Positions 15,883 to 32,436 are shown, numbered from the stretch's first letter. The stretch: 64,000 nucleotides of DNA from an uncultured Thermoleophilia bacterium (GCA_963715985.1 CAVQSP010000014.1:384001-448000); one strand, 5' to 3'. A program made the numbers and translations. The notes: generated by a model from the letters alone, not told the origin.

Positions 15883-17190
15883 ATGAGCAAGGTCGCCGCA
15901 GACGTCGTGCTCCGCGGAGCGTCCGAGCTCGTCACCATGGCCGCGCCGCCCGCCGCCGGCCTAGGCGCCATCGCCGGCGGTGCTCTGGCGGCACGCGAGG
16001 GCGTCATCGTGTGGGTCGGCCTCGAGTCGGAGCTGACGCAGGCGGTCGACCTCGCCGACGACGGTCTGGACATCGACGCCGAAGGCTGCTGCGTGCTCCC
16101 CGGGTTCGTGGATGCGCACACGCACGTCCCCTTCGCCGGCTCGCGCGCGGCAGAGTACGGCGAGCGCCTCGGGGGCGTGAGCTACGCTGAGATCCTCGCG
16201 CGCGGCGGCGGCATCAACGTCACCGTGGGGGCGACGCGCCAGGCCTCGGAAGAGGACCTGGCGCGGCTCTGCCGTGCGCGCTATGACAGCATGCTGCGTC
16301 ACGGCACCACCACGGCCGAGGTCAAGAGCGGCTACGGCCTCGCCGCGGAGCACGAGGCGAAGCAGCTGCGCGCGGCGGCCGTTGCCCACCCTCTGCGTCG
16401 CGAGTACACGTTCCTCGGCGCGCACTTCGTGCCTCCCGAGTACCAGGGCCGTGCGGACGACTACGTCCACCACGTGTGCGACGAGATGATCCCGGCGTGC
16501 GCCCCGCTGGCGCACTGGTGCGACGTGTTCTGCGACGAGGGCGCCTTCACCATCGAGCAGTCGCGACGGGTGCTCCAGGCGGCGCAGGCCGCGGGTCTCA
16601 GCCTGCGCATCCACGCCGACGAGATGGCGCGCTCGGGGGGCTCCTTCCTCGCCGCCGAGCTCGGCTGCGCCTCTGCCGACCACCTCATCCACGCCACGTG
16701 GGAGGAGATCGCGGCCCTCAAAGAGGCGGGCGTCGTGGCCGTCATGCTGCCGGGGACGAGCTATACGCTGGGCGTGCAGTTCGCGCCGGCGCGAGCCTTC
16801 CTTGAGGCCGGCGTCACCATCGCTCTGGCCACGGACTACAACCCGGGGAGCTGCAACTCCGAGAACCTTCAGCTGATGATCTCGCTGGCGTGTCAGGGCA
16901 TGAAGCTGACACCGGACGAGGCTCTCTACGCCGCGACCCGCGGCGGCGCTGCCGCGCTGCGCAGGGACGACGTCGGCAGTCTGGAGGTCGGCAAGCGGTG
17001 CGACTTCAGCGTGCTGGTGGCCCAGAGTCGCAGCGAGCTGCCGTATCACTTCGGCGTGAACCTCGTGACGGACGTGGTGGTCGGAGGCGCCGTGGTGGTG
17101 CAGGACGGCGCCGTGACGGACGCCGCGGCGCCACAGCCTGTGCCCATCTTCCCGCGCCGCGCCGCGGCCGGTCGCGGAGGCGACCGATGA
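15883..17190 (+). CDS. hutI: Imidazolonepropionase
   Basis: PGFVDAHTH, GGGINVTV, GTTTAEVKSGYGL, FLGAH, CDVFCDEG, IHADE and ALATDYNPG motifs. Confidence 0.93.
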   Translation: MSKVAADVVLRGASELVTMAAPPAAGLGAIAGGALAAREGVIVWVGLESELTQAVDLADDGLDIDAEGCCVLPGFVDAHTHVPFAGSRAAEYGERLGGVSYAEILARGGGINVTVGATRQASEEDLARLCRARYDSMLRHGTTTAEVKSGYGLAAEHEAKQLRAAAVAHPLRREYTFLGAHFVPPEYQGRADDYVHHVCDEMIPACAPLAHWCDVFCDEGAFTIEQSRRVLQAAQAAGLSLRIHADEMARSGGSFLAAELGCASADHLIHATWEEIAALKEAGVVAVMLPGTSYTLGVQFAPARAFLEAGVTIALATDYNPGSCNSENLQLMISLACQGMKLTPDEALYAATRGGAAALRRDDVGSLEVGKRCDFSVLVAQSRSELPYHFGVNLVTDVVVGGAVVVQDGAVTDAAAPQPVPIFPRRAAAGRGGDR

Positions 17191-18092
17191 CCCTCGTCGA
17201 GTGTGTGCCCAACTTCTCCGAGGGGCGCCGCCCCGAGGTCATCGACGAGATCGTCGCTGCCATGGCCGGCATCGCCGGCGTCCACGTGCTGGACCGGCAG
17301 AGCGATCCGACCCACAACCGCTGCGTCATCACCCTCGTCGGACCCGATGAGGCGGCCGCTGAGGCCGCGTTCCGCGGCATCGCCGCGGCCGCCCGGCTCA
17401 TCGACCTCACCCAGCACCGGGGAGCGCACCCGCGCTTCGGCGCCGCGGACGTGGTGCCGTTCGTGCCGGTGCGTGAAGCGGACATGCCCGCCTGCGTGGA
17501 GCTGGCGCGGCGGCTTGCGCGCCGTGTGGGTGACGAGCTCGGGATCCCCGCGTACCTGTACGAGGACGCGGCCCTGCGGGAGGAGTGCCGTGACCTCGCG
17601 GACGTCCGCCGCGGCGAGTTCGAGGGCCTGTGCGAAGTCATCGCCGAGGACCCGGCACGGGCGCCCGATGCGGGACCGTGCCGCATGCACCCGACGGCCG
17701 GTGCGGTGGCCGTGGGCGCCCGCCCGCCGCTCATCGCGTACAACGTGAACCTCGACTCGGACGACATCGACCTCGCGCGGGAGATCGCCGTCGCCATCCG
17801 CGAGCGGGACGGCGGCTTCCCCAGGGTCAAGGCCATGGGGCTGGCCCTGGACGACTGCGTGCAGGTGTCCATGAACCTCGTGGACTATCGCGTCACCTCG
17901 ATGCACACGGTCTACACGGAGATCGCCCGCAGGGCGGCCGAGCGCGGTGTGGCGGTGCGTGAGAGCGAGGTGGTCGGCCTCCTGCCCGAGGCGGCACTCG
18001 TCGACCTGGCGCGCCGCTCCCTGAGGGCGGCCGACTTCACCCGGCAGCAGGTCCTCGAAGCGCGCGTGCTGGACCTGCTGACCGGGGGCTGA
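17187..18092 (+). CDS. ftcD: Glutamate formimidoyltransferase
   Basis: LVECVPNFSEGR, DPTHNRCVIT, HRGAHPRFGAADVVPF, RRGEFEGL and QVSMNL motifs. Confidence 0.92.
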   Translation: MTLVECVPNFSEGRRPEVIDEIVAAMAGIAGVHVLDRQSDPTHNRCVITLVGPDEAAAEAAFRGIAAAARLIDLTQHRGAHPRFGAADVVPFVPVREADMPACVELARRLARRVGDELGIPAYLYEDAALREECRDLADVRRGEFEGLCEVIAEDPARAPDAGPCRMHPTAGAVAVGARPPLIAYNVNLDSDDIDLAREIAVAIRERDGGFPRVKAMGLALDDCVQVSMNLVDYRVTSMHTVYTEIARRAAERGVAVRESEVVGLLPEAALVDLARRSLRAADFTRQQVLEARVLDLLTGG

Positions 18093-19523: not shown

Positions 19524-19600
19524 CGGGACGTGGCGCAGCCTGGTAGCGCACCTGCTTTGGGAGCAGGGGGCCGGCGGTTCGAATCCGCCCGTCCCGACCA
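19524..19600 (+). tRNA. tRNA-Pro(TGG)
   Basis: Cloverleaf; anticodon arm CCTGC-TTTGGGA-GCAGG; GTTCGAATC; CCA end. Confidence 0.96.
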
Positions 19601-19613
19601 GACACCCATGCGG

Positions 19614-19690
19614 GCGGGAGTAGCTCAGTTGGCTAGAGCATCAGCCTTCCAAGCTGAGGGTCGCGGGTTCGAAGCCCGTCTCCCGCTCCA
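19614..19690 (+). tRNA. tRNA-Gly(TCC)
   Basis: Anticodon arm TCAGC-CTTCCAA-GCTGA; CCA end. Confidence 0.96.
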
Positions 19691-19787
19691 TTTCTTACCT
19701 CTTCCATGCAGCGCGCTGCTGCGTGGCGGGGTAGAGTGTCGCTCACCGCACCGCGGCTGTAGTCCGCCTCCGTTGCCGGTGTGACTC

Positions 19788-19864
19788 GCGCCCGTAGCTC
19801 AGCTGGATAGAGCAGGAGACTTCTAATCTTCAGGTCGCAGGTTCGAATCCTGCCGGGCGCGCCA
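19788..19864 (+). tRNA. tRNA-Arg(TCT), integration target
   Basis: Anticodon arm GGAGA-CTTCTAA-TCTTC; GTTCGAATC; CCA end; 3' half duplicated at 29269. Confidence 0.96.
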
Positions 19865-19866
19865 TT
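19825..19866 (+). repeat. attL core (42 bp)
   Basis: AATCTTCAGGTCGCAGGTTCGAATCCTGCCGGGCGCGCCATT, identical to 29269-29310. Confidence 0.95.
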
Positions 19867-19886
19867 TAGCCTCAAAACGGCCAAAA

Positions 19887-19910
19887 GGAAGGCCCCTCGC
19901 GGGGCCTTCC
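19887..19910. terminator. Hairpin between the tRNA operon and the integrase gene
   Basis: GGAAGGCCCC-tcgc-GGGGCCTTCC preceded by AAAA (U-tract on the minus strand). Confidence 0.7.
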
Positions 19911-19941
19911 GTCCTCCTACCGTCCTCCTACCCTGACGCGG

Positions 19942-21082
19942 CTACGTGTGCGCCACGTCCACGAGCGCCGCCACGAGCTCCGCCGCCGACTCCTGCAGCG
20001 CCGGGATGACGTGACTGTAGCGGTCCATCGTCATGGCGATGTTCGCGTGCCCGAGCCGCTCCTGCACGACCTTGGGATGGATGCCGGCGCCGAGCGCCAT
20101 GCGTCGCCCAGCCGTGACGCAGATCGTGAAGCCGGATGCTCGGCACGCCCGCGGCCTTCACCGCTTGGCGGAAGAGGTCGGTGATCCTGTCGGGATGCCA
20201 GGGCTCGCCGTCCTCGCGGGTGAAGACGTGCCCGGTGGCCGTCCAGGCATCGGCCCACTCTACGGCGTCCTCGAGCTGCTGGTCTCTCTGCCGCTGCAGG
20301 GCCGACACCGTGGCCGCGTCGATGGCGACGGAGCGGCCCCTGTCGGTCTTCGTGGGACGTTCCATGACCTCGTAGTTCGTCGTCACACGCTGCCGCTGGA
20401 TGGCGAGACGCCCGGAGGCCAAATCAACGTCGGCCCACCGCAGTCCGAGTGCTTCCCCGCGACGCAGCCCGGTCATCGCCAGGAGCCGCCACAGAGGGCT
20501 CAGGCGGTCATCCTTCGTGGCCCGCAGGAACGTGGCCAGCTCATCACGCGACCACGTGTTGAGCTCCGGCATACGGACCTTGGGACGAGTGACGCCGTGG
20601 GCCGGGTTCGTGCGCAGGAGTCCCGCCTTCACCGCGTCCCCGAGCGCATGGTGCAGGACGACGAGGACCGCGCGCCGACTGGCAGGGGAGAGGATGCTGC
20701 CGCGGACGCTGGTCTCGCTGGCCAGCTTGGCCGCCATCACGCTTACGTCGTTGCGGGTGAGCTTCTGCAGCGGGATCGTGCCGATGTGGGCGCTGATGCG
20801 CTTCACGTGCAGCTTGTAGGCGTGCAGGGTGTTCGGTGACAGGTTCTCAGCGCCCAGCGCGGGCAGCCAGCGCGCCTGCAGGTAGTCACTCAGGGACAGG
20901 TCCACCGGGGCGACGTAGTCGCCTCTCTCGCGGTCCCTGAGCGCGTCGTGCATCGCCTTCTCTGCCGCTTTCTTCGCCGTGTACTTCTCGGGCAGCATCT
21001 CCTGCCGGCGTCGACCGTCGACCGGCTCGAGCTCGAGCAGGATGCGCCAGTAGCCGCGCAGATTGCGGACGTGGCCGGTCAT
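19942..21082 (-). CDS. int: Tyrosine recombinase/integrase (frameshift near 20100)
   Basis: TGLRRGEALGLRW and HDLRH motifs; the shifted frame continues GIHPKVVQERLGHANIAMTMDRYSHV. Confidence 0.95.
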
Positions 21083-21420
21083 GAGTCGCCCTCCTCGATG
21101 GCCTCGCCGTCGATGACGTCATCTAGCGCGGCCCCCCTAGCAGCGCGCGCGGCCTTGCGAGACGCGGCATCCCACGGCGGCTCACGGTTGAGACGCGCGA
21201 GCGCGTCCCACACGGGCTGCCAGTAGTCGACGTGCCGGTACTGGTCGCGCAGCTTGGTCAGCTCGGCGCGGACGTGGTCCTTCTCGCGGTAGACGAGGTC
21301 CATGACCTCACGTATCTCCGGAGACTCGGCGGCCCGTGCGTCGTCCTGCTCGACGCGGACCCGGAAGGGCTCGGCGATGTCGTCGACAGCATCCCGGTAG
21401 CCGCGTTCGTACTCCTTCAT
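21079..21420 (-). CDS. Hypothetical protein, translationally coupled to int
   Basis: 113-aa ORF with SD GGAGG and ATGA overlaps on both sides. Confidence 0.7.
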   Translation of the reverse strand: MKEYERGYRDAVDDIAEPFRVRVEQDDARAAESPEIREVMDLVYREKDHVRAELTKLRDQYRHVDYWQPVWDALARLNREPPWDAASRKAARAARGAALDDVIDGEAIEEGDS

Positions 21421-22016
21421 GGTGTGCCTCCACTCTTCGGCTTCATCTCAGGGAACCGCTCCCACGCCTTCTGCAGCCGGCGCCACACCGTCGACTGGTC
21501 GACCTCCAGACGTGCTGCGGCTACTTCACGCGGGCGCGCGTAGCCCTGCGCGACCGCCTGCCGGTACACCTCCGCCGTCTGCCGTAGTTCGTCGTCGTCG
21601 AGTCCCCTGCGACCGCGGCGCACGGTGAGCGACTTCACTGTGGCGCCCATCGCCTCGCCGGCCGTCGGCCAGTCACCGAAGCGCAGGTTGAGCCAGTCCC
21701 ACTCCGCGACCCCGGCGACCGCGTCGCGAATGAAGGTCATGACGTTGGCCCACGGGAACACGCGCAGCATCGACTTCGTGACCTCGTGCTCCTCGCCGCC
21801 GTCTGGGGCGCCGAAGCGCAGGCCCGTGCAGATGAGGCGCCCCGACTGCTGCCGCCCGAGACGCACCTCTACGCGGCAGGGGAGGTCGCCGCCGTCCAGC
21901 GCGATCCAGCGCTCCTCGGGTACGTCCGGGTCCGGCTCCGCGACCATGTCGACGCGGTACTTCGGCAACTCCGTTGCATCGTATCCAGCCACCTTCTGCA
22001 GCCTCCTTGCAATCAT
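21417..22016 (-). CDS. DUF6214-like DNA-binding regulator with C-terminal HTH (probable repressor)
   Basis: RRGRRG...LRQTAEVYRQAV..G..RPREVAAARLEVDQSTVWRRL; divergent from the XRE gene. Start uncertain. Confidence 0.6.
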   Translation of the reverse strand: MIARRLQKVAGYDATELPKYRVDMVAEPDPDVPEERWIALDGGDLPCRVEVRLGRQQSGRLICTGLRFGAPDGGEEHEVTKSMLRVFPWANVMTFIRDAVAGVAEWDWLNLRFGDWPTAGEAMGATVKSLTVRRGRRGLDDDELRQTAEVYRQAVAQGYARPREVAAARLEVDQSTVWRRLQKAWERFPEMKPKSGGTP

Positions 22017-22065
22017 GGTTGACTGCAAGAGTACCACTACCTGTACCGCTGGACAAGGAGGCACC

Positions 22066-22281
22066 GTGTTTGAACTGACCCGCCAACGTGAGGCGTTCGG
22101 CTGGAGCAGGCGCGAGCTGGGCGCCCGCGCCGACGTGCACCCGAACCGCGTCGGCGCCATCGAGAACGACCGCGTCAGGCCCTACCCGCCCGAGCTCGAG
22201 CGCCTCGCCCGCGCCCTCGGCTACCACGGCGACCCCGCGGACCTGCTGCGCGAGGTAGAAGTCAATGCGCCCCCCGCCTGA
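22066..22281 (+). CDS. XRE-family HTH regulator (Cro-like)
   Basis: SD AAGGAGG plus GTG; REAFGWSRRELGARADVHPNRVGAIEND...ERLARAL. Confidence 0.85.
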   Translation: MFELTRQREAFGWSRRELGARADVHPNRVGAIENDRVRPYPPELERLARALGYHGDPADLLREVEVNAPPA

Positions 22282-22471
22282 GCCCCTCACCGTCGACGAC
22301 CTGCGCCGCCGGCCGACGATCACCGTGACCGAGTACGCCGCTTTCATCGGCGTGAGCAAGGACACGGCCTATGAGGCCGCGGCCAGGGGCGAGCTGCGCG
22401 TACTGCATCTCGGCCGGCGCGTGCTCGTGCCGACGGCGCCGGTGCTCGAGGAGCTCGGGTACACGCCGTGA
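22265..22471 (+). CDS. xis: Excisionase-family HTH protein
   Basis: TITVTEYAAFIGVSKDTAYEAAARGEL..LHLGRRVLVP. Confidence 0.85.
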   Translation: MRPPPEPLTVDDLRRRPTITVTEYAAFIGVSKDTAYEAAARGELRVLHLGRRVLVPTAPVLEELGYTP

Positions 22472-22716
22472 GCGGCCGGTACGGTTTCCCCGCCTTCACC
22501 GACGAAGAGAAGGCCCGGCTCCGCGAGTGCCTGCCCACCGAAAGAGACGTCATGCTGGGCTGGGCCATGCCGCTGCTCTCCAAGTCGCCGCTTGAGCGGC
22601 GCGTACTCGTGGCCGCACAGATCGAAGTCCTCGACGGCATCAACGAGGACCCGGCGGGCTGGTGTGCCCGTGCCCTGGAGCTGGCCAGAGCGGAGGCCCA
22701 CCGCGATGCCCACTGA
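22468..22716 (+). CDS. Hypothetical protein
   Basis: 82-aa ORF overlapping both neighbours in the early operon. Confidence 0.6.
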   Translation: MSGRYGFPAFTDEEKARLRECLPTERDVMLGWAMPLLSKSPLERRVLVAAQIEVLDGINEDPAGWCARALELARAEAHRDAH

Positions 22717-23808
22717 CGAGGACGTCGACGCCGCGCGCCGCGTGTTGGAGATGATGGAGGAGCGCGCCGCGCTGCGCGCCGGTGACAACGGCGACAACGG
22801 CGACGGCGACAACGGTACCGGAGACGACGGTTACGACCTCACGCCCCTGGACTGGCCGGCACTCCTGCGCGACGGCGTACCCGAAGTCGAGTACATCAGC
22901 GAGCCCTACCTGCCCCGAGCGCGCCCGCATCTGGGTGTGGGGCCAGACCGGCTCGATGAAGTCGCTGTGGTGCGAGCACGAGGCCGCGAGCCTGTCGCGT
23001 GAGGGCGTGCGCGTCTCCTACTTCGCCGAGGAGAACCCCATCGGCGAGGAGCTGCGCCGGCTGGCGAAGCTGCAGCCGGACCCGGCGCACTTCCGCCTCT
23101 TCCACAGGACGGGGATGGACCTCACCGATGAACGCTGGGTGGTCGCCCTGCTGGGCGCGACCAGGGGCGATGACATCATCTTCCTCGACAGCTGGACCGA
23201 CCTGTGGGGCGGCAACGAGGACGCCAACCGCGAGGTGCAGCAGTTCGACGCCGCCGTGCTCAAGCCGCTGCAACGGCAGGGCGTGACGCCGGTCGTGATC
23301 CACCACATGGGGCACCGCTACATGTTCAGCGACCGCGGCGGCGCCACCGGCGGACGCGGCGCCTCCTCACTGGGGCAGAAGGCCGACGTGACTCTGGAGT
23401 TCAAGAGTGCCGGTGACGACCTCTTCACCATCGTCTACGGCAAGTGCCGCATCGGCGGCATCCACCAGCCGCCGCGCAGTTTCAAGGTGGAAGACACCGA
23501 CGACGGGCGCGTGCGAGATCGTCGAGTGCGAGTCGCTCGAGGACCGCGCCGTCGCGGAGCTGGCCGAGAAGGCGGCGCAGGCGATATTGACGGCGCCGCG
23601 CGGCTACCTCACCACCAACGAGCTGCGCGTCGCCGCGGGCGGCGGCAGGAACCACCAAGCGGCCGCCTGGGCCATCCTCGAAGACGACGCACGAGTGTGT
23701 ACGGGCGTCGAGAAGGTGCAGGCGGGGGACGGCAAGTGGCGGGACTGCAAAGTATGGCGCCCCGCGGCGCACTTGGGGTCGCACTTGAGTCTTGAAGGCT
23801 TGTCTTGA
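22706..23808 (+). CDS. RepA-like AAA_25/RecA-family replicative helicase (two frameshifts)
   Basis: Walker A GQTGSMKS, Walker B IIFLDS, VVIHHMG, GRGASSL, GKCR; C-terminal wHTH-like segment. Confidence 0.8.
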
Positions 23809-23945
23809 CGCCGACGGTGACGCAAGTGATTGAAGTGCGCCCCGACGCCTATATAGGCGTGTCGTCGGGGCGCACTTGGACCACTTCGCAAGTCTCACCG
23901 TCCAACCGCGCCCCAGAGACGCGGGGCGCACTTGGGGCGTACTTG
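23767..23945. repeat. Putative replication origin: iterons and nested palindrome
   Basis: (G/T)CG(C/T)ACTTG at 23767, 23779, 23870, 23926 and 23937; 15-bp IR 23833-23847/23863-23877 around the palindrome ACGCCTATATAGGCGT. Confidence 0.7.
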
Positions 23946-23971
23946 ACCCGAAAGCCGCGGGAGCGAGCACT

Positions 23972-24379
23972 GTGACCCCCGGCAACTACCTCCGCGCGCT
24001 CCTCAAGGTCGCGCCGGAGCTCCCCGCCGGCTTCGTCGTGATCGACGTCCTGCACGACTCGTGGTGTGCGCACTGGCGCGGCCGTCCCTGCGACTGCGAC
24101 CCGGAGCTCGTGGTGCATCGTGAGGAGTCCGACGATGACCACGCTGACGCCTCTCCGCGCCTGACTCTCGTCTGGAGCCGCGGCGGCAGCGCCAACGTCA
24201 CCGCTGCCGGCCGCGCGCGCCCCTGCCACATCTCCGACCTCGAGCGGCCCGCCGGTCGCTTTCTCTGTGACGGCTGCCGCCACCAACTGTTCATCGACGG
24301 CGGCAGCCACGTCGCCTGCACCTCACCCTCGCGCATCTTCACCCCCCATGGCCCCCGCCACGGCCACGCTGCCCCCTGA
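23972..24379 (+). CDS. Cys/His-rich hypothetical protein (may be two small genes fused by an indel)
   Basis: HDSWC...CDCDP and CDGC motifs; GTG start after GGGAG. Confidence 0.5.
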   Translation: MTPGNYLRALLKVAPELPAGFVVIDVLHDSWCAHWRGRPCDCDPELVVHREESDDDHADASPRLTLVWSRGGSANVTAAGRARPCHISDLERPAGRFLCDGCRHQLFIDGGSHVACTSPSRIFTPHGPRHGHAAP

Positions 24380-24689
24380 CCGCGCCCTCTCCCTACGCGC
24401 CACGGCGAAGCTGCTCGGCTGCTCGCCGTCGACCGTGCGGCGCCTCGAGTGCGTGGCGTTGGCGAAGATCGCGGCGGGGTTGCGACGTGGTCCGTCGTCC
24501 AACGCTGGACAACGGGAGATGGAGCGGGGACAGCCATATCCGGGCAGTGCAACCACGTCCGACGTTGGACATGGTTCTGCCTACGCCGTCGCGCTCGCCG
24601 AGACGGGCCATGACGCCGAGCTGCGCTACCTCGCCCGCCTCATGGCCTGCCCCTGGGGCGAGTACCCGGACGCCGAGCCGCCGTCGTGA
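24348..24689 (+). CDS. Sigma-70 region-4-like HTH protein (possible late-gene activator)
   Basis: LSLRATAKLLGCSPSTVRRLECVALAKI. Confidence 0.6.
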   Translation: MAPATATLPPDRALSLRATAKLLGCSPSTVRRLECVALAKIAAGLRRGPSSNAGQREMERGQPYPGSATTSDVGHGSAYAVALAETGHDAELRYLARLMACPWGEYPDAEPPS

Positions 24690-24954
24690 CACACCCTGCG
24701 TACAATGGTAGTGAGGCACCGGCGCGCGTGGCGGCGCTGTCAGGTGCCCTCGTCCCGTCCGCTTCGGCGGACGGTGCTCTTCAGCCAGCGCGGGGCTGCC
24801 TTCGGGCGTGGCCGCGACCGGCGAGCCGACGCTGCCGGTTCCAAAGTGCGACGGCGCCCAGGCGCCCGGCGGCATCGCGACCGCCGATGTGGCAAGGGTC
24901 CGGCCCACCTCGCCTGAAACGGGCCACTACCAGGCAATCGACAGGAGGGCGACC

Positions 24955-25281
24955 ATGAAGACGAACACCGACGCCGCCGCCTTCTTCGCGACCATGGACG
25001 ACGAGCTCGCCGCCGCCGGCCTGCACCTGCTCGGTGAGCTGGCCGTGCGCCGCCCGCTGGACGACCGCGACCGCCTGCTCGTGGCCTCCGTCGTCACCGA
25101 GCTGGGCGCCGTCCGCGACGGCCTCCGCGTGGCCGAAGCCCTGGCCCGCCTGCGGCGCTTCATCGCGCAGCTCGGGCTGACCATCTTCGACCTGCCGGCG
25201 CTCTCCCTGGGCCGCAGCGACCTCGCCGCCGTGGTGGCGCCGCTGCTACCGATGCCGACCACGGCCGGGATGATGAACTGA
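24955..25281 (+). CDS. Hypothetical protein upstream of the capsid gene
   Basis: SD AGGAGG plus ATG; 108-aa helical ORF. Confidence 0.7.
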   Translation: MKTNTDAAAFFATMDDELAAAGLHLLGELAVRRPLDDRDRLLVASVVTELGAVRDGLRVAEALARLRRFIAQLGLTIFDLPALSLGRSDLAAVVAPLLPMPTTAGMMN

Positions 25282-25443
25282 CAACCGGAGCCCGTGGCTC
25301 CGTAACCGCGTCACCTGCACCACGACCGCCACGGCGGCCGGCCTGGGCTGCTCGCTGACCAGCGCGAGCACTCAGCGCCACCGCTGCCGGAGTTGCCGGA
25401 CACGCGACGCCGATCAGCCACCTTACTGAGAGGCAGCAGCACC

Positions 25444-26652
25444 ATGAGTATCAAGGACCTGCACCAGCAATACCTGGCGGCGGTTAAGACTGCCCGTGAT
25501 CCCTCGCTCAGCCGCGAGGCCCGCGCCTGCGCCGAGGAAGCGCTCGTGGAAGCGCGGCGCCAGCTCGACCTCGGCCTCATGCATGACGCCCAGGAGCGCG
25601 AGCACGTCGCCGACGACGACGCCAAGCAGCGTGCCCTCGCCATCCTCGACGGCAGCGTGCCCGCCGCCGACAGCGACGAGCTGCGCGAGTTCTACCGCCC
25701 GGTCGACCCCTCGCGGCCGATGCAGCAGTACATCAGCGTGCCGCTCGATCTGCGTCACCTGGAGAAGCGCGTCGAGTACCCGCTGGCCCTGGGCGACACC
25801 ACGTACACGTTCGGCAACTACGGCGTCGGCAGCACCGTCGCCAGCGCCATGATGACCGGCCTGACCGGGCAGAGCGCGATCCTCGAGGCCGGCCCCAAGG
25901 TGTTCCGCACGCCGACCGCGGAGCCGCTCGTCGTGCCGACCGCCACCGACATCGTCGCCGGCTACCGTGCCGAGGGTGTCACGGCCGCGGAAGACACCGT
26001 GGTGCTGAGCAAGCTCACGCTGTCGGGGTTCCACCTCGCCGGGTACACGGAAGTCACGTCAGAGTTCGAGGGCAGCGCCCTCAACGGCGGCGGCCCCGCC
26101 TTCGTCAGCGAGCTCTGTGGCCGCAGCCTGGGCGTCAAGCTCGCCACCGAGCTGGCCGTGGGCACCGACGCGAGTGACACGATCTGCGGCGCCTTCACCG
26201 CGCCGACTGTCGGCGTCACTGCCGTGGCGAGTACGAGCTTCTCCGCCCAGGAGCTTCGTGCCCTGCGTCAGAGCGTTCCCCCGGCCGCGAGGCGCAAGGG
26301 CGTCTGGGTGTTCAGTGACGCGGCCATGGCCCACGCCCTGCAGCTCATCGACGACAACGGCAACTTCATGATCCAGCCGGGCATCAACGGCGACGGCGCC
26401 GATACCCTGTGGGGGCAGAAGTGCCTGTGCGATCCCTACGGCCCTGCTCTGACAGCTTCAAAGCACGTCGTCTTGTATGGCGACTTCAGCAACGCCTTCG
26501 TCGTGCGCTTCGTGGGCAACCTCGAAGTCACGCGCAGCGACCAGGCCGGGCTCACCGAGTTCGTTTCTTGGATCTCCGTGTACCGGTATCAAGTCACCGT
26601 CGATTCGGGGTACGTCACGAGTGACGTGCGCTCGCTGAAGATGCTGCCGTAA
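25444..26652 (+). CDS. HK97-fold phage major capsid protein with N-terminal coiled-coil (delta/scaffold) region
   Basis: EG..A.E...LSKLTL...LAGYTEVTSE, GTD...I.G, GVWVFSD, IDDNGNFMIQPG...DTLWG, VLYGDFS and V.YR...VDS HK97-family motifs. Confidence 0.85.
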   Translation: MSIKDLHQQYLAAVKTARDPSLSREARACAEEALVEARRQLDLGLMHDAQEREHVADDDAKQRALAILDGSVPAADSDELREFYRPVDPSRPMQQYISVPLDLRHLEKRVEYPLALGDTTYTFGNYGVGSTVASAMMTGLTGQSAILEAGPKVFRTPTAEPLVVPTATDIVAGYRAEGVTAAEDTVVLSKLTLSGFHLAGYTEVTSEFEGSALNGGGPAFVSELCGRSLGVKLATELAVGTDASDTICGAFTAPTVGVTAVASTSFSAQELRALRQSVPPAARRKGVWVFSDAAMAHALQLIDDNGNFMIQPGINGDGADTLWGQKCLCDPYGPALTASKHVVLYGDFSNAFVVRFVGNLEVTRSDQAGLTEFVSWISVYRYQVTVDSGYVTSDVRSLKMLP

Positions 26653-26726
26653 GCCTGATCTACTGACCACGTGCCCGCTGTCGACCCTTCAGCGGCGGCG
26701 GGCACTCCACCATCAGTGAGGACGCC

Positions 26727-26855
26727 GTGAGCGACGACGAGGACGAGCGCATCCGCGAGGCCGTGCGCCGACTCATCGACGACGACGAGGCGACGGTCGA
26801 GCTGCTGGTGTGGTGCGTGCTGGCGAGCGAGACGATGAAGGAGCAGATGCCGTGA
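26727..26855 (+). CDS. Small acidic hypothetical protein (42 aa)
   Basis: GAGG SD plus GTG; stop overlaps the HNH start. Confidence 0.5.
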   Translation: MSDDEDERIREAVRRLIDDDEATVELLVWCVLASETMKEQMP

Positions 26856-27209
26856 GTCCGTGGGCACCGAAGGCACCGTGTCGGGTATGTCACCGTGTCG
26901 GCTGCGTCGACCCGAGTCACAAGCGCAAGCCCTTCGCATGCGGCTGCCCCTCGTCGTGAGAGCAGACCGGGATGGGATGCCGACCGCAAGCGCAGGCGTG
27001 CCGTGGTCGAAGCGTGGCGCGCACGAGTACGGCGACGTCTGCCCACGCTGCCGCAGGACGGGCGTCAAGCTGACTGCCGACCACCTGCACCGGTGGCCCT
27101 CGGCGGCGCGGAGGACGGACCGCTCTCCGTGCTGTGCATCGACTGCCAGCGATCACAGGGAGCGCGCGTCGCCAACGCGCGACGGCGGCCCCCGGAGTCT
27201 AGGAATTGA
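26852..27209 (+). CDS. HNH endonuclease, gp74-like terminase partner (frameshifted)
   Basis: Reconstructed: SPWAPKAPCRVCHRVGC...CPRC...LTADH..PVALGG....LSVLCIDCQRSQG. Confidence 0.75.
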
Positions 27210-27302
27210 TCGCGGGGGTGAGGCCGGCGCATCCGGGGGTGGCACTGCTTGTGCGTCCGCAAAATGGCGAAGCCCGAACGCAATCATGAAAAGTGAGGCA
27301 CC

Positions 27303-27630
27303 ATGCCCCGCACTCGCAAACGCCCCGAGATACCGCGCCGACGGCCTCTCCGAGCGCGCCAGGCACTCTGGCACGCTGTCGTGCCAACGCGCGGAGTCTC
27401 GCCGGTCGCCTCGTCTCATCGGTGAAGCCTGCGCGCCTCGATCGCGCCGACGAGGCCGCGGCCATCGTCGACGCCGAGGGTATGAGCTTCACCACGGAGA
27501 CGACGAAGACCGTGCACCTGCACCGCTGGTCAAGGTCGAGCGCGAGCAGCGCCAGCTCTTCGCCAAGCTGTGGAGCAGCATGTGCCACCTGGAGTGGGAC
27601 TCGCAGACGGACGGCAGGGTGTGGGACTGA
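27303..27630 (+). CDS. P27-family terminase small subunit (frameshifted)
   Basis: Reconstructed: MPRTRKRPE..DGLSERA.ALWHAVV...LDRADEAAAIVDAEGM...HPLVKVEREQRQLFAKLW. Confidence 0.7.
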
Positions 27631-28002
27631 CGCCGGCCATGAGCGTGTTCTCCACCATCGCACACGTCGCCCTGGCCGCTGCGTCGCCGCCGCTGCGTCG
27701 TTCTGTTCTGGCCGCGGCGCCGTCACCGCTGAGCGCCGCTGCATCGTTACGCACGAGGCCCGCATAGAAGCGCCGAAAGCCAAGCCACTCCTACCTCCCG
27801 CGTGCTGCGAGCGCCTGAAACGGGCCCACAACGCGAACGGCGACCGTTAGCGCGGATCGCCGTTGCGGAGCTTTGGAAAGTTGGCGTCAGACTCTACACC
27901 GGGGGCGGGACGGCGGCGCCGTTGTGCGCCTGCAACGCGGAGACGCCCCCGCTCCTGCGAGGGCGCCTCCGTTTGTCCGCGTTCTGACAGCGGGCCGAAG
28001 TC

Positions 28003-28607
28003 TTACTGAGCGACCGTCGAAACGTCGAGCGTGCCGCTGAACGACTTGCCCGCGACGCTGACCGGGGCGTTCATCCAGCCAGAAAGACGATGCGCATGTT
28101 GCAGATCGTGTCCGCGATGATAGGCAGCGGGAAGACGTAGCCGGTGGTCGTCAGGTCCGTCAGCGTGCCTCAGCGACGAAGGCGTTTGACGTGGGCACCG
28201 CCAGGACCTCGAGTTCCCGCCGGGGCCGGTGGAGGCCCAGCCGAGCCGGTAGCGCACGTTGGCGAGGAGCTCGGGCTCCGGCGTGCCGGTGAGGGTCAGC
28301 TTCATGGTCGCGTGCAGCGGGTCGGTGCCCGACTGCGAGAAGCCCAGGTCGTTGCGCAGCGAGGTAGTCCAGAACTCCCAGTCGGTCGTGCCCATGACGG
28401 GGACGGCGCGCGGGAGCAGCGCATTGGCCCTGACGTTGGCGCCTTGTCCGTAGATCACGTCGAGGCCCGCAGGGGCCGCGCCGTGCTGCCCGTGAAGGGC
28501 ATCGGTAGGATGCCTGACCAGATCGCCAGGGCGACGGTCGCGACGCCGAGTGTGCCGGCGAACGCGAACGCGATCCGCAGGCGACGGTGTGTGAACAGTC
28601 TACGCAT
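28003..28607 (-). CDS. Satellite cargo: secreted/membrane-anchored beta-rich protein (frameshifted)
   Basis: SD GGAG; N-terminal basic-plus-hydrophobic segment MRRLFTHRRLRIAFAFAGTLGVATVALAIW; ends GKSFSGTLDVSTVAQ. Confidence 0.55.
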
Positions 28608-28665
28608 GGTGACTCATCTCCAGTGGAGCGTTGTCTTCTCACTCAGAGTGGATGCATGGCAGGCG

Positions 28666-28848
28666 TCACCGGCCCTTCTGGCGTCGTGTCCGGTCGAACG
28701 CGAGCACGTCGGCGGGGCGGAAGTAGATCCGGCAGCGGCCGACGTACATGCGGGGCAGGCGGGAGTCGTCGATAGCCTGGAGCTGGGCGTGCGTGAGCTG
28801 CAGACGTGCGGCAGCTTCAGCGAGCGTCAACATCCGGGGCTCGTACAT
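28666..28848 (-). CDS. Small MerR/Xis-like HTH protein
   Basis: MLTLAEAAARLQL...LPRMYVGRCRIYFRPADVLAF. Confidence 0.6.
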   Translation of the reverse strand: MYEPRMLTLAEAAARLQLTHAQLQAIDDSRLPRMYVGRCRIYFRPADVLAFDRTRRQKGR

Positions 28849-29268
28849 GCTGGCCCATCCCCCGCGCGTGTCTGCACCCTGGCGGGTGCTTGGGCGATGC
28901 CGGGGGGAGGGTGCCCCCGCGCAGAGGAGTGGACCACTGTCGAGGCGATACACACATGCGCGGAGGCATGGCAACTATACCGCCTCGACGGCCACACATG
29001 CGCGGGGGAACGAAAGATGGTCTACCCCTCCACGGTACCGCCTCGACGACTCCCTTCTACACCACAACAGGAGCCGACGCAAGAGGACAGGACGTTACAG
29101 GGCCCGACACGGGGGCCGGGGGCCGTCCTCCATCCGTCCTCTCACCTAGCGCCGAAGGCCCCTGAAACGCGCCGACAGGGGCAGACGACGCGGCCGACCG
29201 CGCCACCACTTAGCCTCAAACGAGCAGTTTCGGCCGACAGGCGCCGACCGTGCCGCCGTGCGTGCCTG

Positions 29269-29310
29269 AATCTTCAGGTCGCAGGTTCGAATCCTGCCGG
29301 GCGCGCCATT
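29269..29310 (+). repeat. attR core (42 bp, duplicated 3' half of tRNA-Arg)
   Basis: Identical to 19825-19866. Confidence 0.95.
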
Positions 29311-29951
29311 CTCACTTGCGGACGCGCGCTGTGCGGACGCGCACCGCCCAGCCGCAAGCGCGGAGGCGCAGGCGCGAAGGACGAGGGGCCGGACATGAAC
29401 GCCCTCGTCATCGTCATCCTCCCGGGCCAGCGGAAGCGGTGGGTACAGATGAAGCGCACCAGCGCTTCCCAGCATGCGTGGCCGGAGTACGGGTTCGTCG
29501 GTCTCCCCCCCGCCTCGAACGTAGCTCACTGTTCAGGGAGAGTACGAGCCTCATGGCATCGCAAGGGTGCTGCCGTTTGTGCTGTGGTCCACCGGCGAGA
29601 GAGCGCCAGGGGCGGGCCACACGGGCCGGGGATCGATTGAGGCAGGAGAAAGCCGGTGAGACCTGTGGCCCAGAGGGGCGCAGCAGGGGGACCGGCTGAA
29701 GTCATGCTACCCCGACACGACCGTGCGCTGAACACGCACGATGCAGGTATCTGTCGCCAGGGGTGACGACGGGCCGGGGATTGCGCAGGGCTACAGCAGC
29801 AGGCTACACCGCGTCGCGGTCGGTAGGGAGGGTGACGATAGGGGCGACGGGGTGACAACGCAGAAACGCCCATGATCGCGAAGAAGCGTCTCCCGGCGGT
29901 ACTCAAAGGACTGCGCGGCCTGACGGAGTCCGAGGCACCGGATGCGTACAG

Positions 29952-30059
29952 CTACCGGCGCGCGAACAACCAGAGGACGGCCAGGACTGCGACGAGCACG
30001 AATGCGACCACGAGCATCCAACCGCGCCACGTGAGCGCGAACGCCACGAAGGCATCCAT
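29952..30059 (-). CDS. 35-aa single-TM small protein
   Basis: MDAFVAFALTWRGWMLVVAFVLVAVLAVLWLFARR*, preceded by GAGGAAGGGG. Confidence 0.45.
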   Translation of the reverse strand: MDAFVAFALTWRGWMLVVAFVLVAVLAVLWLFARR

Positions 30060-30204
30060 CGTGCCCCTTCCTCTGTGCCCTGCAGGCGTGGCAAGACTAT
30101 CACGGTGGGCCCTCTGAACCGCTCAGCCGCGGTTCTTGCGAGTGTCCATGACGCAGTGATGCTCATCTGAGTCGACGCTCGCCGCCGTGTGCCGCGTGCC
30201 GGCA

Positions 30205-30415
30205 GTCCGCCGGCAGCTACTCCCCAGCTTCCTCGAGCCGCGGCGGCGAAGCGAGCAGGCCTTGGTCGCGGTCACCGCCCAGACATTCTGTGAACGGCGT
30301 CTCGACGCGCAAGGTCGAGCGCCTCGTCGCCCGGCTCGGCATCGAGAGCATGGGCCGCAGCGCCGTCTCCCGCCTCTGCCGCCCTCTCTATGAGCAGGTG
30401 CAGACCCTCCAAGAG
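30205..30415 (+). pseudogene. IS256-family transposase fragment
   Basis: PSFLEPRRRSEQALVAV and VNGVSTRKVERLVARLGIESMGRSAVSRLC match the IS256 transposase N-terminal half. Confidence 0.85.
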
Positions 30416-30418
30416 CCT

Positions 30419-31002
30419 GGATGTGCAGCCCCGAGGAACCTCCCGGCGAAGAGGGCGTGGAACGTTCAGACGGTGGCGACGGGAACTGGGGAGGCCCTCC
30501 CGGGCCTGGCGGACTGTGGAGAGTCGCCGGAGCGCCGCGCCCCAGGGCGGCGAGGAGCCGGGAAGTGGGTGTTGAGCCGGGAGGGCGTTGAGGCGACCGT
30601 AGTACCGCTTGCAGCCGACGGGACAACAGAACCCGCGGCGAAGGGAAGGGCCGCTCCTTCGTCTGCGCGTCGCGTGGAGTGAATGGCCGGTGAGTGCCCT
30701 CGAGGCTAGCCCACCGAACAAGACAAGGTCCGAGAACTGCAACGATCGCTGTGCCGGGCGGCCAAGGCCGACCCGGGACGACGCTTCCATGCACCCTACG
30801 GCAAGGTCCACCGCAGGGTCACTGGACGCCCCGTCGCGCCACGACCGAGTCGGTCGTGGCGGGTCAAGCCGAATGCCGGCGGCAAGAGGAGTCGATGAGC
30901 CGTGTGAGGGAGAACCTCATGCACGGTTCGATGGGGGGCGGGAGGAGACCAGCGCCGGTGGGCTTGCGCCGTGCGGCGCCAGGCGCCTCTCGCCTACGCG
31001 AC
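30419..31002 (+). mobile_element. Group II intron remnant: 5'-truncated, with the RT ORF internally deleted
   Basis: Domain V GAGCCGTGTGAGGGAGAACCTCATGCACGGTTC (30897-30929); domain VI ending CCTACGCGAC; IEP N-terminal fragment DKVRELQRSLCRAAKADPGRRFHAPYGKVHRR (30722-30817). Confidence 0.85.
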
Positions 31003-31174
31003 CTTGACCGAAGTGGGAGTACATACCCATCGTGACTCTGCCCACCGTGAGGTGCGGGCAGTCGGCTCATTCTCTTCCAGCTCACGCCGGTCCTACCTCT
31101 CCACCACGAAGAGGTCGGCACCCCGGGCCCGTGCGACTACCACGCCGCAGCCGTGCGGTGCTCGCCTGGTAGCG

Positions 31175-31203
31175 CGGACTGTTGCGTCTGCTGCGGGTAG
31201 GCT
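31175..31203 (+). promoter_or_regulatory. Promoter of surface protein copy 2
   Basis: CGGACT-17bp-TAGGCT; conserved with TGGACT-17bp-TAAGGT upstream of copy 3. Confidence 0.55.
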
Positions 31204-31233
31204 GACGAAGGCACACATAGGGGGAGGTAGAAA

Positions 31234-32040
31234 GTGATGGGGAGTCCATTCAGCTCCCGGAGCGCGGCGCGCTTCTGGCACATCAGTGTGTTCGTCCTGA
31301 TCGTCGCCCTGCTGGCCTCAGGCGCGGCGCTGGCCGCTCCGGCCGCGCACGCTCTGGGCAGCATCGAGGGTACGGTCACGGCCGCGCCCGGCGGCACCGT
31401 TCCACTCGAGAACATCCTGGTCTACGCGTTCAATCCCGGCCAGGTGCCGGTGTCCGCTGTGCCCGACCTGTCGTATGCGGTCGCCTCGGACGGGACCGAC
31501 ACGAACGGCGAGTACAAGCTCGACGTCCCCGCCGGTGAGTACGCAGTGTGGTTCAGCGACGGCCTCATGCAGATCTCGGCAGTGCCGACGGTCAACGACT
31601 ACGTCGCTCAGTGGTTCTGAGGTTCCTCGCCTTTCGACTCCGGTCAGGGCCCGTGGGAGACGGTCAACGTCGTCGCCAACCAGAGGATCGCCGAGCAGAA
31701 TGACAGCCTCGCCCCGGCGAGCAACATCTCAGGTATGGTCTTCGCGGCGGGCGGCACCACCGGCCTCCTGGACATCGAAGTGTACCTGTACACTCGCGAC
31801 ATCGAGTGGTATTGGCCGGCGTGGGTCGAGGCCATCCAGGCCGGAGCCGGGCCAGGCCCTGCCGCCGTCACGGACAGCAGCGGCTCCTACACGCTTCCCC
31901 AGCTCAAGCCGACCAGGGGCGCAGCGGGTCCCGACGACTACTGGGTCTACTTCTACGATCCCAGCAAGCACCATGCGCCTCAGTGGCGCGACATGCAGCC
32001 GCCGCGGCTTCCCCGCCACAACCTCCAGTTGGGTATTGGC
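31234..32040 (+). pseudogene. Surface protein copy 2: in-frame TGA at 31618 and internally deleted (no linker or CTD)
   Basis: Signal peptide and ...AVWFSDGLMQ...VPTVNDYVAQWF*GSSPFD...AAVTDSSGSY...YWVYFYDP; then joins a homolog of the copy-3 3' UTR. Confidence 0.75.
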
Positions 32041-32045
32041 GGGGG

Positions 32046-32407: not shown

Positions 32408-32436
32408 TGGACTATTTCGCCCGCTGCGGGTAAGGT
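32408..32436 (+). promoter_or_regulatory. Promoter of surface protein copy 3
   Basis: TGGACT-17bp-TAAGGT, then SD AGGAGGAGG. Confidence 0.6.

What the first reader, a model, noticed from the sequence alone, without database searches (positions are those of the whole stretch)
19825..29310. Capsid-encoding phage satellite with MCP, HNH and TerS but no TerL, portal or protease
Seen: a complete 9.5-kb element between perfect 42-bp att repeats in tRNA-Arg(TCT). Gene order is int, hypothetical, DUF6214-like repressor | XRE, xis, helicase, ori, sigma-r4 HTH, MCP, HNH, TerS, then oppositely oriented cargo. Known: PICIs have this int-regulator-rep-ori-packaging layout; cf-PICIs carry the full head module (TerL, portal, protease, MCP), while SaPIbov5-like islands carry a capsid homolog (Ccm) that remodels helper heads. 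Inference: this is an intermediate design that supplies its own HK97 capsid and DNA-selection factors (TerS, HNH, cos) and borrows TerL, portal, protease and tail from a cos helper phage. I know of no description of such a satellite in this lineage.
Basis: partly seen in the sequence, partly recalled or inferred. Interest (0 to 1): 0.78.

Follow-up and report, generated by a model that had tools for sequence, protein, structure and literature searches.

The report
Small capsid-gene phage satellite at tRNA-Arg
A 9.4-kb mobile island sits in a tRNA-Arg gene and carries its own integrase, replication genes, one phage capsid gene and two DNA-packaging genes but nothing else of a virus, so it most likely rides on a helper phage; islands of this general design are already known.

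Summary
A perfect 42-bp direct repeat (19825-19866 and 29269-29310), which is the 3' part of tRNA-Arg(TCT), bounds a 9,444-bp island.

Gene content:
- Tyr integrase, then an HTH repressor-like gene divergent from XRE and Xis
- AAA_25 helicase, followed by an iteron cluster
- an HTH protein and an HK97-type major capsid protein (MCP)
- an HNH-like gene and a small terminase (TerS)
- leftward cargo

HNH and TerS gave no profile hit as written in the window, because they are broken by 3 and 6 single-base indels. Intact database homologues rescued them: P0012 matches PHROG HNH (2.3e-8) and P0014 matches PHROG TerS (1.8e-7). P0014 is identical at 104 of 105 in-frame residues, and host Lon, ClpP and PBP2 are also frameshifted. 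The breaks are therefore assembly noise, not decay.

A six-frame PHROG scan of 126 fragments found no TerL, portal, protease, tail or lysis remnant.

The satellite reading is supported, but the claim of an undescribed design is not:
- The published PICI model already has integrase, regulator, replicase, capsid homologue and TerS as its core, with HNH occasional.
- SaPIbov5 (Ccm), EcCICFT073 and PmCI172 carry capsid homologues.
- Mycobacterium has 8-12-kb integrase+MCP elements (phiRv1/2 and others).

Verdict: a new, divergent member of a known kind. The genomic context of relatives could not be obtained.

The parts
19788..19864 (+). tRNA-Arg(TCT), the integration target; it stays intact at attL
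   Evidence: ARAGORN; Rfam tRNA 71 bits
19825..19866 (.). attL core: 42-bp perfect repeat
29269..29310 (.). attR core: 42-bp perfect repeat
19942..21082 (-). Tyrosine integrase. One assembly frameshift near 20134 puts the catalytic-Tyr region in the frame of 19942-20157.
   Evidence: PF00589 4e-15 and phrog_1 3.9e-52. C-terminal piece matches PF00589 positions 142-168 of 172 and phrog_1 at 3.2e-12. Frame path.
21079..21420 (-). 113-aa acidic hypothetical protein
   Evidence: Strong GC3 signal. No family hit.
21417..21992 (-). ~191-aa protein with a C-terminal HTH-like stretch; candidate repressor, divergent from XRE. The start is inferred.
   Evidence: GC3 and frame path; translation. No Pfam hit at E<0.01. 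Atlas look-alikes are hypothetical-protein clusters commonest in Actinomycetota; DUF6214 is only a lead.
22015..22281 (+). XRE/Cro-type HTH regulator (start uncertain: 22015 or 22066)
   Evidence: HTH_31 1.7e-11 and HTH_3 5.8e-10; phrog_8 9.1e-5
22265..22471 (+). Excisionase / AlpA-type HTH_17 protein
   Evidence: PF12728 3.4e-6; TIGR01764 at 33.9 bits, above the 28.8 cut-off
22468..22716 (+). 82-aa hypothetical protein
   Evidence: Frame path; no hits
22706..23808 (+). RepA/DnaB-like AAA_25 helicase, read across two frameshifts near 22915 and 23512. No primase domain was detected.
   Evidence: AAA_25 9.2e-9; phrog_239 primase/helicase 6e-5, helicase part only; frame path; Walker A visible in the translation
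23757..23945 (.). Candidate ori: six GCGCACTTG iterons (five direct, one inverted) around the palindrome GCCTATATAGGC
23954..24379 (+). ~140-aa Cys/His-containing hypothetical protein (start uncertain)
   Evidence: Frame path; no hits
24267..24689 (+). HTH DNA-binding protein; possible activator of the capsid/packaging operon (inference). Start uncertain.
   Evidence: Sub-threshold HTH_38, HTH_23 and HTH_31 matches; phrog_597 DNA-binding 0.0096
24955..25281 (+). 108-aa hypothetical protein just upstream of the MCP
   Evidence: GC3 0.90; no Pfam, PHROG, NCBIfam or Atlas hit
25444..26652 (+). HK97-family major capsid protein, 402 aa, intact. It has a ~110-aa N-terminal extension ahead of the capsid domain.
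   Evidence: PF05065 3.8e-22; TIGR01554 93.5 bits; phrog_10 7.8e-14. 100% identical to P0002 from another assembly. N-terminal helices 3-68 have pLDDT ~80 in an otherwise poor model.
26727..26855 (+). Small acidic ORF (42-55 aa) of unknown function
   Evidence: Coding signal; no hits
26852..27209 (+). HNH-like zinc-finger nuclease gene, broken by 3 internal frameshifts (near 26936, 27024 and 27091)
   Evidence: Homologue P0012 at E 3.7e-17; tblastn and frameshift-aware alignment. P0012 and P0013 match PHROG HNH at 2.3e-8 and 1e-9. Pfam HNH_5 scores 22.9 and 25.5 bits, below the 27.5 cut-off.
27210..27302 (.). HNH-TerS intergenic region; candidate cos/packaging site (inference only)
   Evidence: Position by analogy with HK97-like cos phages (recalled); sequence; not tested
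27303..27630 (+). Small terminase subunit gene (111 aa), broken by 6 single-base indels
   Evidence: P0014 at E 2.2e-15. 104 of 105 in-frame residues are identical, with 6 indels. P0014 matches phrog_1496 TerS at 1.8e-7. Pfam Terminase_4 reaches only 13.4 bits against a 24.7 cut-off.
28003..28613 (-). Leftward cargo gene(s), frameshifted. The N-terminus looks like a signal peptide or transmembrane segment.
   Evidence: Codon-usage frame switches; translations; no family hits
28666..28848 (-). Second HTH_17 (MerR/excisionase-like) small DNA-binding protein
   Evidence: PF12728 6.2e-4, below the cut-off; translation
29210..29220 (+). TTAGCCTCAAA. A second exact copy lies at 19866-19876. The two would flank the core in attP, so they are candidate integrase arm sites.
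   Evidence: 2 matches against 0.05 expected; 2 of 100 shuffles reach 2

Best explanation
This is an integrated, helper-dependent phage satellite of the PICI type, in a high-GC genome that is probably Actinomycetota.

Shown:
- It is a 9.4-kb island, site-specifically inserted in the 3' end of tRNA-Arg(TCT).
- It has a Tyr integrase and Xis.
- It has a divergent regulator pair: an HTH repressor-like protein facing XRE.
- It has its own replicon: an AAA_25 helicase followed by an iteron cluster.
- It has a rightward block of HTH protein, 108-aa ORF, HK97-type MCP, small ORF, HNH-like gene and TerS.
- It has no TerL, portal, protease, head-tail, tail or lysis genes.

Inferred mechanism:
- A helper, most likely an HK97-like cos phage that needs an HNH cofactor, de-represses the island.
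- The island excises and replicates from its iterons.
- Its TerS and HNH-like protein recruit the helper's TerL to the island's own packaging site, which may lie in the 93-bp HNH-TerS gap.
- Its MCP homologue then acts in one of two ways. It may co-assemble with helper capsid protein to make small heads, as Ccm of SaPIbov5 does. Or it may form the shell itself on the helper's portal, with the helper's protease removing its N-terminal extension.

The many frameshifts in the window are assembly indels, so the island is probably intact in the cell.
For: Structure and content:
- att repeats and tRNA.
- Module content by profiles.
- Iterons clustered directly after the helicase.
- HNH and TerS established through the intact homologues P0012 and P0014.
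- Six-frame PHROG scan: 7 of 126 fragments hit, all to integrase, regulator, Xis, helicase, DNA-binding or MCP families.

The frameshifts are assembly noise:
- TerS is 104/105 identical to P0014 apart from 6 single-base indels.
- The MCP is 100% identical to P0002.
- Host PBP2, Lon and ClpP are also split between frames.

Gene order argues against simple decay: MCP->HNH->TerS cannot come from one deletion of the usual HNH-TerS-TerL-portal-protease-MCP order (that order is recalled).

Published precedents for the design.
Against: - No helper phage is known, and none was looked for outside the island. The rest of the 64-kb window was only partly scanned.
- The genomic context of relatives is missing.
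- No excision or packaging data exist.
- TerS and HNH reach only PHROG significance. The Pfam scores are below the curated cut-offs.
- The HNH-like family has Q where the last metal-binding His is expected, so nuclease activity is uncertain (motif positions recalled).
- Indel density is far higher in 26850-28600 than in the MCP. No polished sequence exists for the HNH or cargo genes, so real decay there cannot be excluded.
- No primase domain was found.
Confidence: 0.7

Rival explanations
1. It is a decayed prophage remnant. A once-complete HK97-like temperate phage lost most of its genes, and the island is now immobile or only excisable.
For: - It contains only phage-type genes.
- Frameshift density is high in the right third of the island.
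- The tRNA-Arg locus also holds other mobile-element debris just downstream: a Mutator transposase fragment and a group II intron domain.
- No context of relatives is available to show that the small size is conserved.
Against: - The 42-bp att repeats are perfect.
- The TerS breaks are pure indels with 104/105 identical residues, and host essential genes are equally broken. The breaks are therefore not decay.
- No TerL, portal, protease or tail fragment appears among 126 six-frame fragments.
- It has its own helicase and iterons.
- The MCP-HNH-TerS order needs several precise deletions.
- Four of the ten MCP homologues sit on contigs of 7.8-9.8 kb, which is weak evidence.
Confidence: 0.13
2. 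It is an integrative, self-replicating element (AICE- or plasmid-like) that keeps a phage capsid homologue, HNH and TerS mainly as anti-phage interference or decoy functions for the host, not for its own transfer in particles.
For: - It has an integrase, Xis and its own replicon in a tRNA gene, as in small actinomycete integrative elements (recalled).
- Satellite capsid homologues are known to interfere with helper phages (PMC6092414 and PMC8569155).
Against: - No conjugation or FtsK-like transfer gene was detected in any frame, although only PHROG, Pfam and NCBIfam were searched.
- A TerS plus HNH pair is most simply explained by selection of the island's own DNA for packaging.
Confidence: 0.07
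3. It is a truncated capsid-forming PICI (cfPICI) that lost TerL, portal and head-tail genes.
For: The MCP, HNH and TerS trio is part of the cfPICI core set.
Against: - The features that define cfPICI (TerL, portal, head-tail adaptor and connector) are absent without trace.
- At 9.4 kb, its size matches the PICI median of 9.5 kb rather than the cfPICI median of 14 kb.
Confidence: 0.05

Closest known systems
PICI as modelled by SatelliteFinder (de Sousa et al. 2023, PMC10085698)
   Same: - Integrase, AlpA/MerR-type regulator, replication module followed by an ori, capsid-morphogenesis (capsid homologue) gene and TerS, all in the same order.
- HNH is occasionally present in PICI.
- No tail, holin, portal or head-tail genes.
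- The PICI median size of 9.5 kb compares with 9.4 kb here.
   Different: - The sequences are very divergent. SatelliteFinder itself could not be run.
- The replication protein is a helicase with no detectable primase domain.
- The host is an unidentified high-GC bacterium, probably Actinomycetota.
Mycobacterium candidate PICIs and prophage-like elements (phiRv1, phiRv2, phiBN42_1, phiMmcs_2; PMC10654092, PMC3986857)
   Same: - They are 8-12-kb att-flanked islands, often in tRNA genes.
- They have an integrase plus an HK97-type MCP.
- They variably carry Xis, primase/helicase, HNH and terminase genes.
- The phylum is probably the same.
   Different: - phiBN42_1 and (as I recall) phiRv2 carry a prohead protease next to the MCP. 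None is found here.
- The exact set of MCP + HNH + TerS without a protease is not among the examples I read.
- Homology of this MCP to theirs was not tested.
SaPIbov5 (cos-type SaPI with Ccm)
   Same: - The satellite encodes a capsid-protein homologue but no protease, portal or TerL.
- The helper is an HK97-like cos phage whose packaging needs an HNH protein.
- Ccm takes the pentamer positions and yields small T=4 heads.
   Different: - SaPIbov5 carries the helper's cos site and no TerS or HNH of its own. This island encodes both.
- It is a Firmicute element with no sequence relation.
Capsid-forming PICI (cfPICI)
   Same: It has its own MCP, HNH and TerS, and a PICI-like left half.
   Different: cfPICI are defined by also having TerL, portal, and head-tail adaptor and connector genes. 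All are absent here.

Membership tests
PICI (SatelliteFinder definition) | Integrase at one end, site-specific att | tested here: met
PICI (SatelliteFinder definition) | Regulator (alpA / merR / stl type) | tested here: met
   HTH_17/TIGR01764 protein at 22265-22471 and XRE at 22015-22281. Matches to the SatelliteFinder HMMs themselves were not run.
PICI (SatelliteFinder definition) | Primase-replicase module followed by an ori | tested here: inconclusive
   AAA_25 helicase and the helicase part of phrog_239; iterons directly downstream; no primase domain found
PICI (SatelliteFinder definition) | Capsid-morphogenesis / capsid-homologue gene | tested here: met
   PF05065 and TIGR01554
PICI (SatelliteFinder definition) | Small terminase subunit | tested here: met
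   Near-identical intact copy P0014 matches phrog_1496 at 1.8e-7. Pfam Terminase_4 is below its cut-off.
PICI (SatelliteFinder definition) | Absence of forbidden components (tail, holin, portal, head-tail genes) | tested here: met
   Six-frame PHROG scan: 0 of 126 fragments hit such families
PICI (biological definition) | Induction, replication and packaging dependent on a helper phage | not testable with these tools
   Needs experiments or read data
cfPICI | Large terminase, portal, and head-tail adaptor and connector genes | tested here: not met
   None detected in any frame. The island has no room for them.
HK97-family major capsid protein | Match above the curated cut-off to TIGR01554 / PF05065 | tested here: met
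   93.5 bits against 27.5, and 79.4 bits against 24.2. The AlphaFold model was too poor (pLDDT 45) to confirm the fold.
HNH endonuclease (Pfam HNH / HNH_5) | Profile match above the gathering score, and an H-N-H catalytic triad | tested here: inconclusive
   Homologues score 22.9 and 25.5 bits against 27.5 for HNH_5, but PHROG HNH families reach 2.3e-8 and 1e-9. The two CxxC pairs and the DH are present. The last His position is Q in the window copy, in P0012 and in P0013 (motif positions recalled).
P27-type small terminase (Pfam Terminase_4) | Profile match above the gathering score | tested here: not met
   13.4 bits against a 24.7 cut-off, E 0.11. The TerS call rests on phrog_1496.
SaPIbov5-type cos satellite | Carries the helper's cos site; the capsid homologue redirects head size | not testable with these tools
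   No helper is known. The cos candidate at 27210-27302 is inference only.
phiRv1/phiRv2-type elements | Prohead protease adjacent to the MCP (recalled for phiRv2; stated for phiBN42_1 in PMC3986857) | tested here: not met
   No protease hit in any frame

The most novel reading that the evidence does not exclude
The island is a 'minimal capsid-former'. Its single MCP, self-scaffolded by its ~110-aa N-terminal helical extension, builds the entire small shell on a stolen portal. Its own HNH-TerS pair reprogrammes a stolen TerL. This would be a true intermediate between head-remodelling PICIs and cfPICIs, and it would show stepwise gain or loss of head genes in satellites.
Probability: 0.2. Interest if true: 0.6.

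Novelty: new member of a known kind. Interest (0 to 1): 0.3.

Why it matters
If it is functional, this island adds a very divergent PICI-like satellite from an uncultured high-GC lineage. The closest non-self MCP is 66% identical, and no phage in the INPHARED set was listed above 38%.

It also gives a compact natural test case for two questions. First, what does a satellite-encoded capsid homologue do when the satellite has no portal, protease or TerL? Second, can a satellite-encoded HNH+TerS pair redirect a helper's large terminase?

There is a practical lesson as well. In this assembly, apparent pseudogenes are indel artefacts, so gene-content-based satellite finders would miss HNH and TerS here.

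Tried and rejected
- **The search for related loci on genome contigs.** The MCP alone and then an 8-sequence MCP alignment both returned no confirmed relative.
- **blastn (distant) against phages.** Positions 21300-29268 gave no match.
- **tblastn of the MCP against phages.** There were 133 records, all under 60% identity; the 25 listed were 21-38%.
- **tblastn of HNH and TerS homologues against phages.** P0014 gave none. P0012 gave a single weak hit, at the right end of Gordonia phage Dogfish, E 8e-4.
- **Pfam and PHROG on single-frame HNH/TerS fragments.** Nothing was found at E<=5.
- **Representative-library phmmer with the 27290-27847 frame.** 0 hits.
- **My own by-eye reading.** I read a 'GLTPA' TerS C-terminus in a third frame. 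This was wrong: P0014 shows the protein ends at 27627.
- **AlphaFold.** The MCP model had pLDDT 45 and the TerS model pLDDT 60. Foldseek of the TerS model against the PDB gave 0 matches at E<=0.001, so neither model was used.
- **PDB sequence searches.** P0014 and P0012 gave only noise. The MCP profile gave ordinary HK97-type capsids, the best being RcGTA 6tba at 6e-7.
- **Atlas.** There was no usable hit for the 108-aa ORF.
- **Promoter/terminator scan.** Results were at or below chance.
- **Homopolymer density.** It does not explain the excess of frameshifts in the right third of the island.

Full report
**Observation.**
- ARAGORN finds a tRNA-Pro, tRNA-Gly, tRNA-Arg(TCT) cluster at 19524-19864.
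- The last 40 nt of tRNA-Arg plus 2 nt (19825-19866) recur perfectly at 29269-29310, 9,444 bp away.
- A 32-nt core of this repeat occurs exactly twice in the window. No shuffle out of 100 gave any match.
- The window is 70% G+C, so I used third-position GC and a codon-usage Viterbi path to pick coding frames.

**Assembly quality.**
- Frames switch inside obviously essential host genes:
  - The PBP2 transpeptidase domain is split between 55048-56613 and 56444-57373.
  - Lon_C is split between 41336-43879 and 43446-44018.
  - ClpP appears only as profile positions 94-181 in 39873-40163.
- Inside the island:
  - The integrase has one switch. Its catalytic C-terminus is in the frame of 19942-20157.
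  - The helicase has two.
  - The HNH-like gene has three.
  - TerS has six.
- For TerS the cause is clear. P0014 is a 111-aa protein from another assembly. It is identical to the window at 104 of 105 in-frame residues and differs only by six single-base indels.
- Decay would also bring substitutions, so these breaks are noise.
- The MCP has no break and is 100% identical to P0002.
- The indel density in 26850-28600 is much higher than elsewhere. Homopolymer density does not explain this.
- For the HNH-like gene (best homologue 54% identical) and the cargo, I cannot prove that all breaks are artefacts.

**Gene content, left to right.**
- Tyr integrase, 19942-21082 on the minus strand (PF00589 4e-15; phrog_1 3.9e-52).
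- A 113-aa hypothetical protein.
- A ~191-aa protein with a C-terminal HTH-like stretch, 21417-21992 on the minus strand.
  - It has no Pfam hit.
  - Its Atlas look-alikes are hypothetical-protein clusters commonest in Actinomycetota.
  - DUF6214 appears only in 16% of a rank-18 cluster.
- Facing it, an XRE regulator at 22015-22281 (HTH_31 1.7e-11).
- An excisionase at 22265-22471 (TIGR01764 above its cut-off).
- An 82-aa ORF.
- An AAA_25 helicase at about 22706-23808 (9.2e-9). It matches the helicase part of a PHROG primase/helicase (6e-5).
- Directly after the helicase, all six window matches to GGGCGCACTTG (<=1 mismatch) fall within 181 bp (23765-23945), around the palindrome GCCTATATAGGC. 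This is a plausible iteron origin.
- An unknown Cys/His-containing ORF.
- An HTH protein with only sub-threshold matches.
- A 108-aa ORF with no relatives found.
- The MCP, 25444-26652.
  - It matches PF05065 at 3.8e-22 and TIGR01554 at 93.5 bits.
  - The capsid domain starts near residue 114. It is preceded by a helical extension (helices 3-68, pLDDT about 80, in an otherwise unusable model).
- A small acidic ORF.
- The HNH-like gene, 26852-27209.
- A 93-bp gap.
- TerS, 27303-27630.
- About 370 bp without coding signal.
- Leftward cargo: a frameshifted ORF with a signal-peptide-like start, and a second HTH_17 protein.

**HNH and TerS.**
- As written in the window, neither gene matches any Pfam or PHROG family, even at E<=5.
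- A full phmmer scan of 1.84 billion representatives with one TerS frame found nothing.
- Searching with the frame fragments that hold most real residues found intact homologues:
  - P0012 (139 aa, E 3.7e-17) and P0013 for HNH.
  - P0014 for TerS (E 2.2e-15).
- P0012 and P0013 match PHROG HNH-endonuclease families (2.3e-8 and 1e-9). P0014 matches phrog_1496, 'terminase small subunit', at 1.8e-7 over residues 11-104.
- Pfam scores stay below the curated cut-offs: HNH_5 at 22.9 and 25.5 bits against 27.5, and Terminase_4 at 13.4 bits against 24.7.
- The HNH-like family keeps two CxxC pairs and the DH. It has Q where I recall the last metal-binding His, in all three sequences.

**What is absent.**
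- I scanned every stop-to-stop fragment of at least 50 aa in all six frames of 19867-29268 against PHROGs, 126 fragments in all.
- Seven had hits: integrase (two), regulator, excisionase, primase/helicase, a weak DNA-binding match, and major head protein.
- None matched a large terminase, portal, protease, head-tail, tail or lysis family.

**Relatives.**
- The MCP has only 10 homologues at E<=0.001 among the 8,000 candidates scored. All come from metagenome-type sources.
- Identities are 100%, 66%, 62%, and then 48% or lower for near-full-length matches; two shorter proteins align at 69% and 63% over about half the query. Four of the ten sit on contigs of 7.8-9.8 kb.
- The second refutation test, whether relatives are consistently full prophages, therefore stayed unchecked.
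- No phage record matches the island's DNA.
- MCP matches in 133 phage records are all below 60% identity.

**Mechanism.**
- The anatomy is that of a helper-dependent satellite: lysogeny switch, own replicon, and a short hijack module.
- In HK97-like cos phages the HNH protein sits next to cos and TerS (recalled).
- The only phage hit of P0012 lies at the extreme right end of Gordonia phage Dogfish, which fits that layout weakly.
- I infer that the island's TerS and HNH-like protein direct a helper's TerL to an island site, and that the MCP alters or replaces the helper's shell.
- The MCP-HNH-TerS order cannot arise from one deletion of the usual phage order, which argues against simple decay.

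**Comparison with what is known.**
- de Sousa et al. 2023 (PMC10085698; passages and section 17 read):
  - The five PICI core components are integrase, regulator, primase-replicase, capsid-morphogenesis gene and TerS.
  - HNH occurs occasionally in PICI.
  - TerL and head-tail adaptor and connector genes are listed as the components that distinguish cfPICI. Portal and head-tail profiles are forbidden in the PICI model.
  - Median sizes are 9.5 kb for PICI and 14 kb for cfPICI.
  - PICI are reported in 66% of Mycobacterium genomes, similar to phiRv1/phiRv2.
- PMC10654092 (passages) defines Mycobacterium candidate PICIs as integrase plus MCP. Many are at tRNA genes, and some have helicase, terminase or scaffold genes.
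- PMC3986857 (passages) lists 8-12-kb att-flanked elements with sets such as:
  - integrase-excisionase-primase-protease-MCP;
  - HNH-MCP-HNH-integrase.
- PMC8569155 (abstract and passages):
  - SaPIbov5 Ccm is a capsid-protein homologue, 24% identical to the helper's.
  - Ccm fills the pentamers of small T=4 heads.
  - The island encodes no protease.
- PMC6092414 (passages) reports a putative capsid protein in EcCICFT073 and an MCP homologue in PmCI172.
- PMC10690885 (Streptomyces satellites) was seen only as a search listing.
- The design is therefore a known kind. This copy differs in three ways:
  - it has the exact trio MCP+HNH+TerS without a protease;
  - its sequences are extremely divergent;
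  - its host is unidentified.
- My literature searches were not exhaustive. I make no claim that the exact trio is or is not in print.

**Verdict.**
- Novelty: a new member of a known kind.
- Interest is modest.

Noticed in passing
window 39594-40154, 41440-43907, 55319-57342 (also 15873-18083): Essential host genes (ClpP, Lon, PBP2, and probably the formiminotransferase gene) are split between reading frames. The assembly carries roughly one indel per few kb, so any gene call in this window needs frameshift-tolerant reading.
   Followed up: partly
window 29311-31230: The stretch just downstream of attR has almost no coding signal. It holds a Mutator-family transposase fragment (30152-30679, PF00872 positions 85-153 of 379, E 8.3e-6) and a group II intron catalytic-domain match (30895-31008, 42.2 bits against a 40 cut-off). 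This looks like debris of other mobile elements at the same tRNA locus.
   Followed up: partly
window 19866-19876 and 29210-29220: TTAGCCTCAAA occurs exactly twice in the window: directly after the attL core, and 49 bp before the attR core (0.05 expected). In a circular attP the two copies would flank the core, so they may be integrase arm-type sites.
   Followed up: partly
window 26852-27209; P0012, P0013: This HNH-like family conserves ...TADHLHP(I/V)ALGGAEDGPL..(L/M)C..CQ.., with Q rather than His at the end of the motif in all three sequences. It may be a non-canonical or inactive nuclease that serves only as a terminase cofactor.
   Followed up: no
Gordonia phage Dogfish MK524505.1, 41639-41788: The only phage match of P0012 lies in an unannotated stretch at the extreme right end of this actinophage genome (48% identity over 47 aa, E 8e-4). 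An unannotated HNH-like ORF may lie next to its cos site.
   Followed up: no
window 37791-62000: The host gene order is tRNA-His, tRNA-Leu, then trigger factor (position inferred), ClpP, ClpX and Lon. Further on come ndk, maf, MreD, PBP2, a radical-SAM gene and DUF2344. From memory this resembles the actinomycete order (Streptomyces-like). The Atlas taxa for the island's 191-aa protein agree. The organism was not identified.
   Followed up: no
window 31231-34100: Two ORFs with weak CarboxypepD_reg-like matches (E about 1e-4, below the cut-off) follow the junk region. They may be surface or secreted repeat proteins.
   Followed up: no
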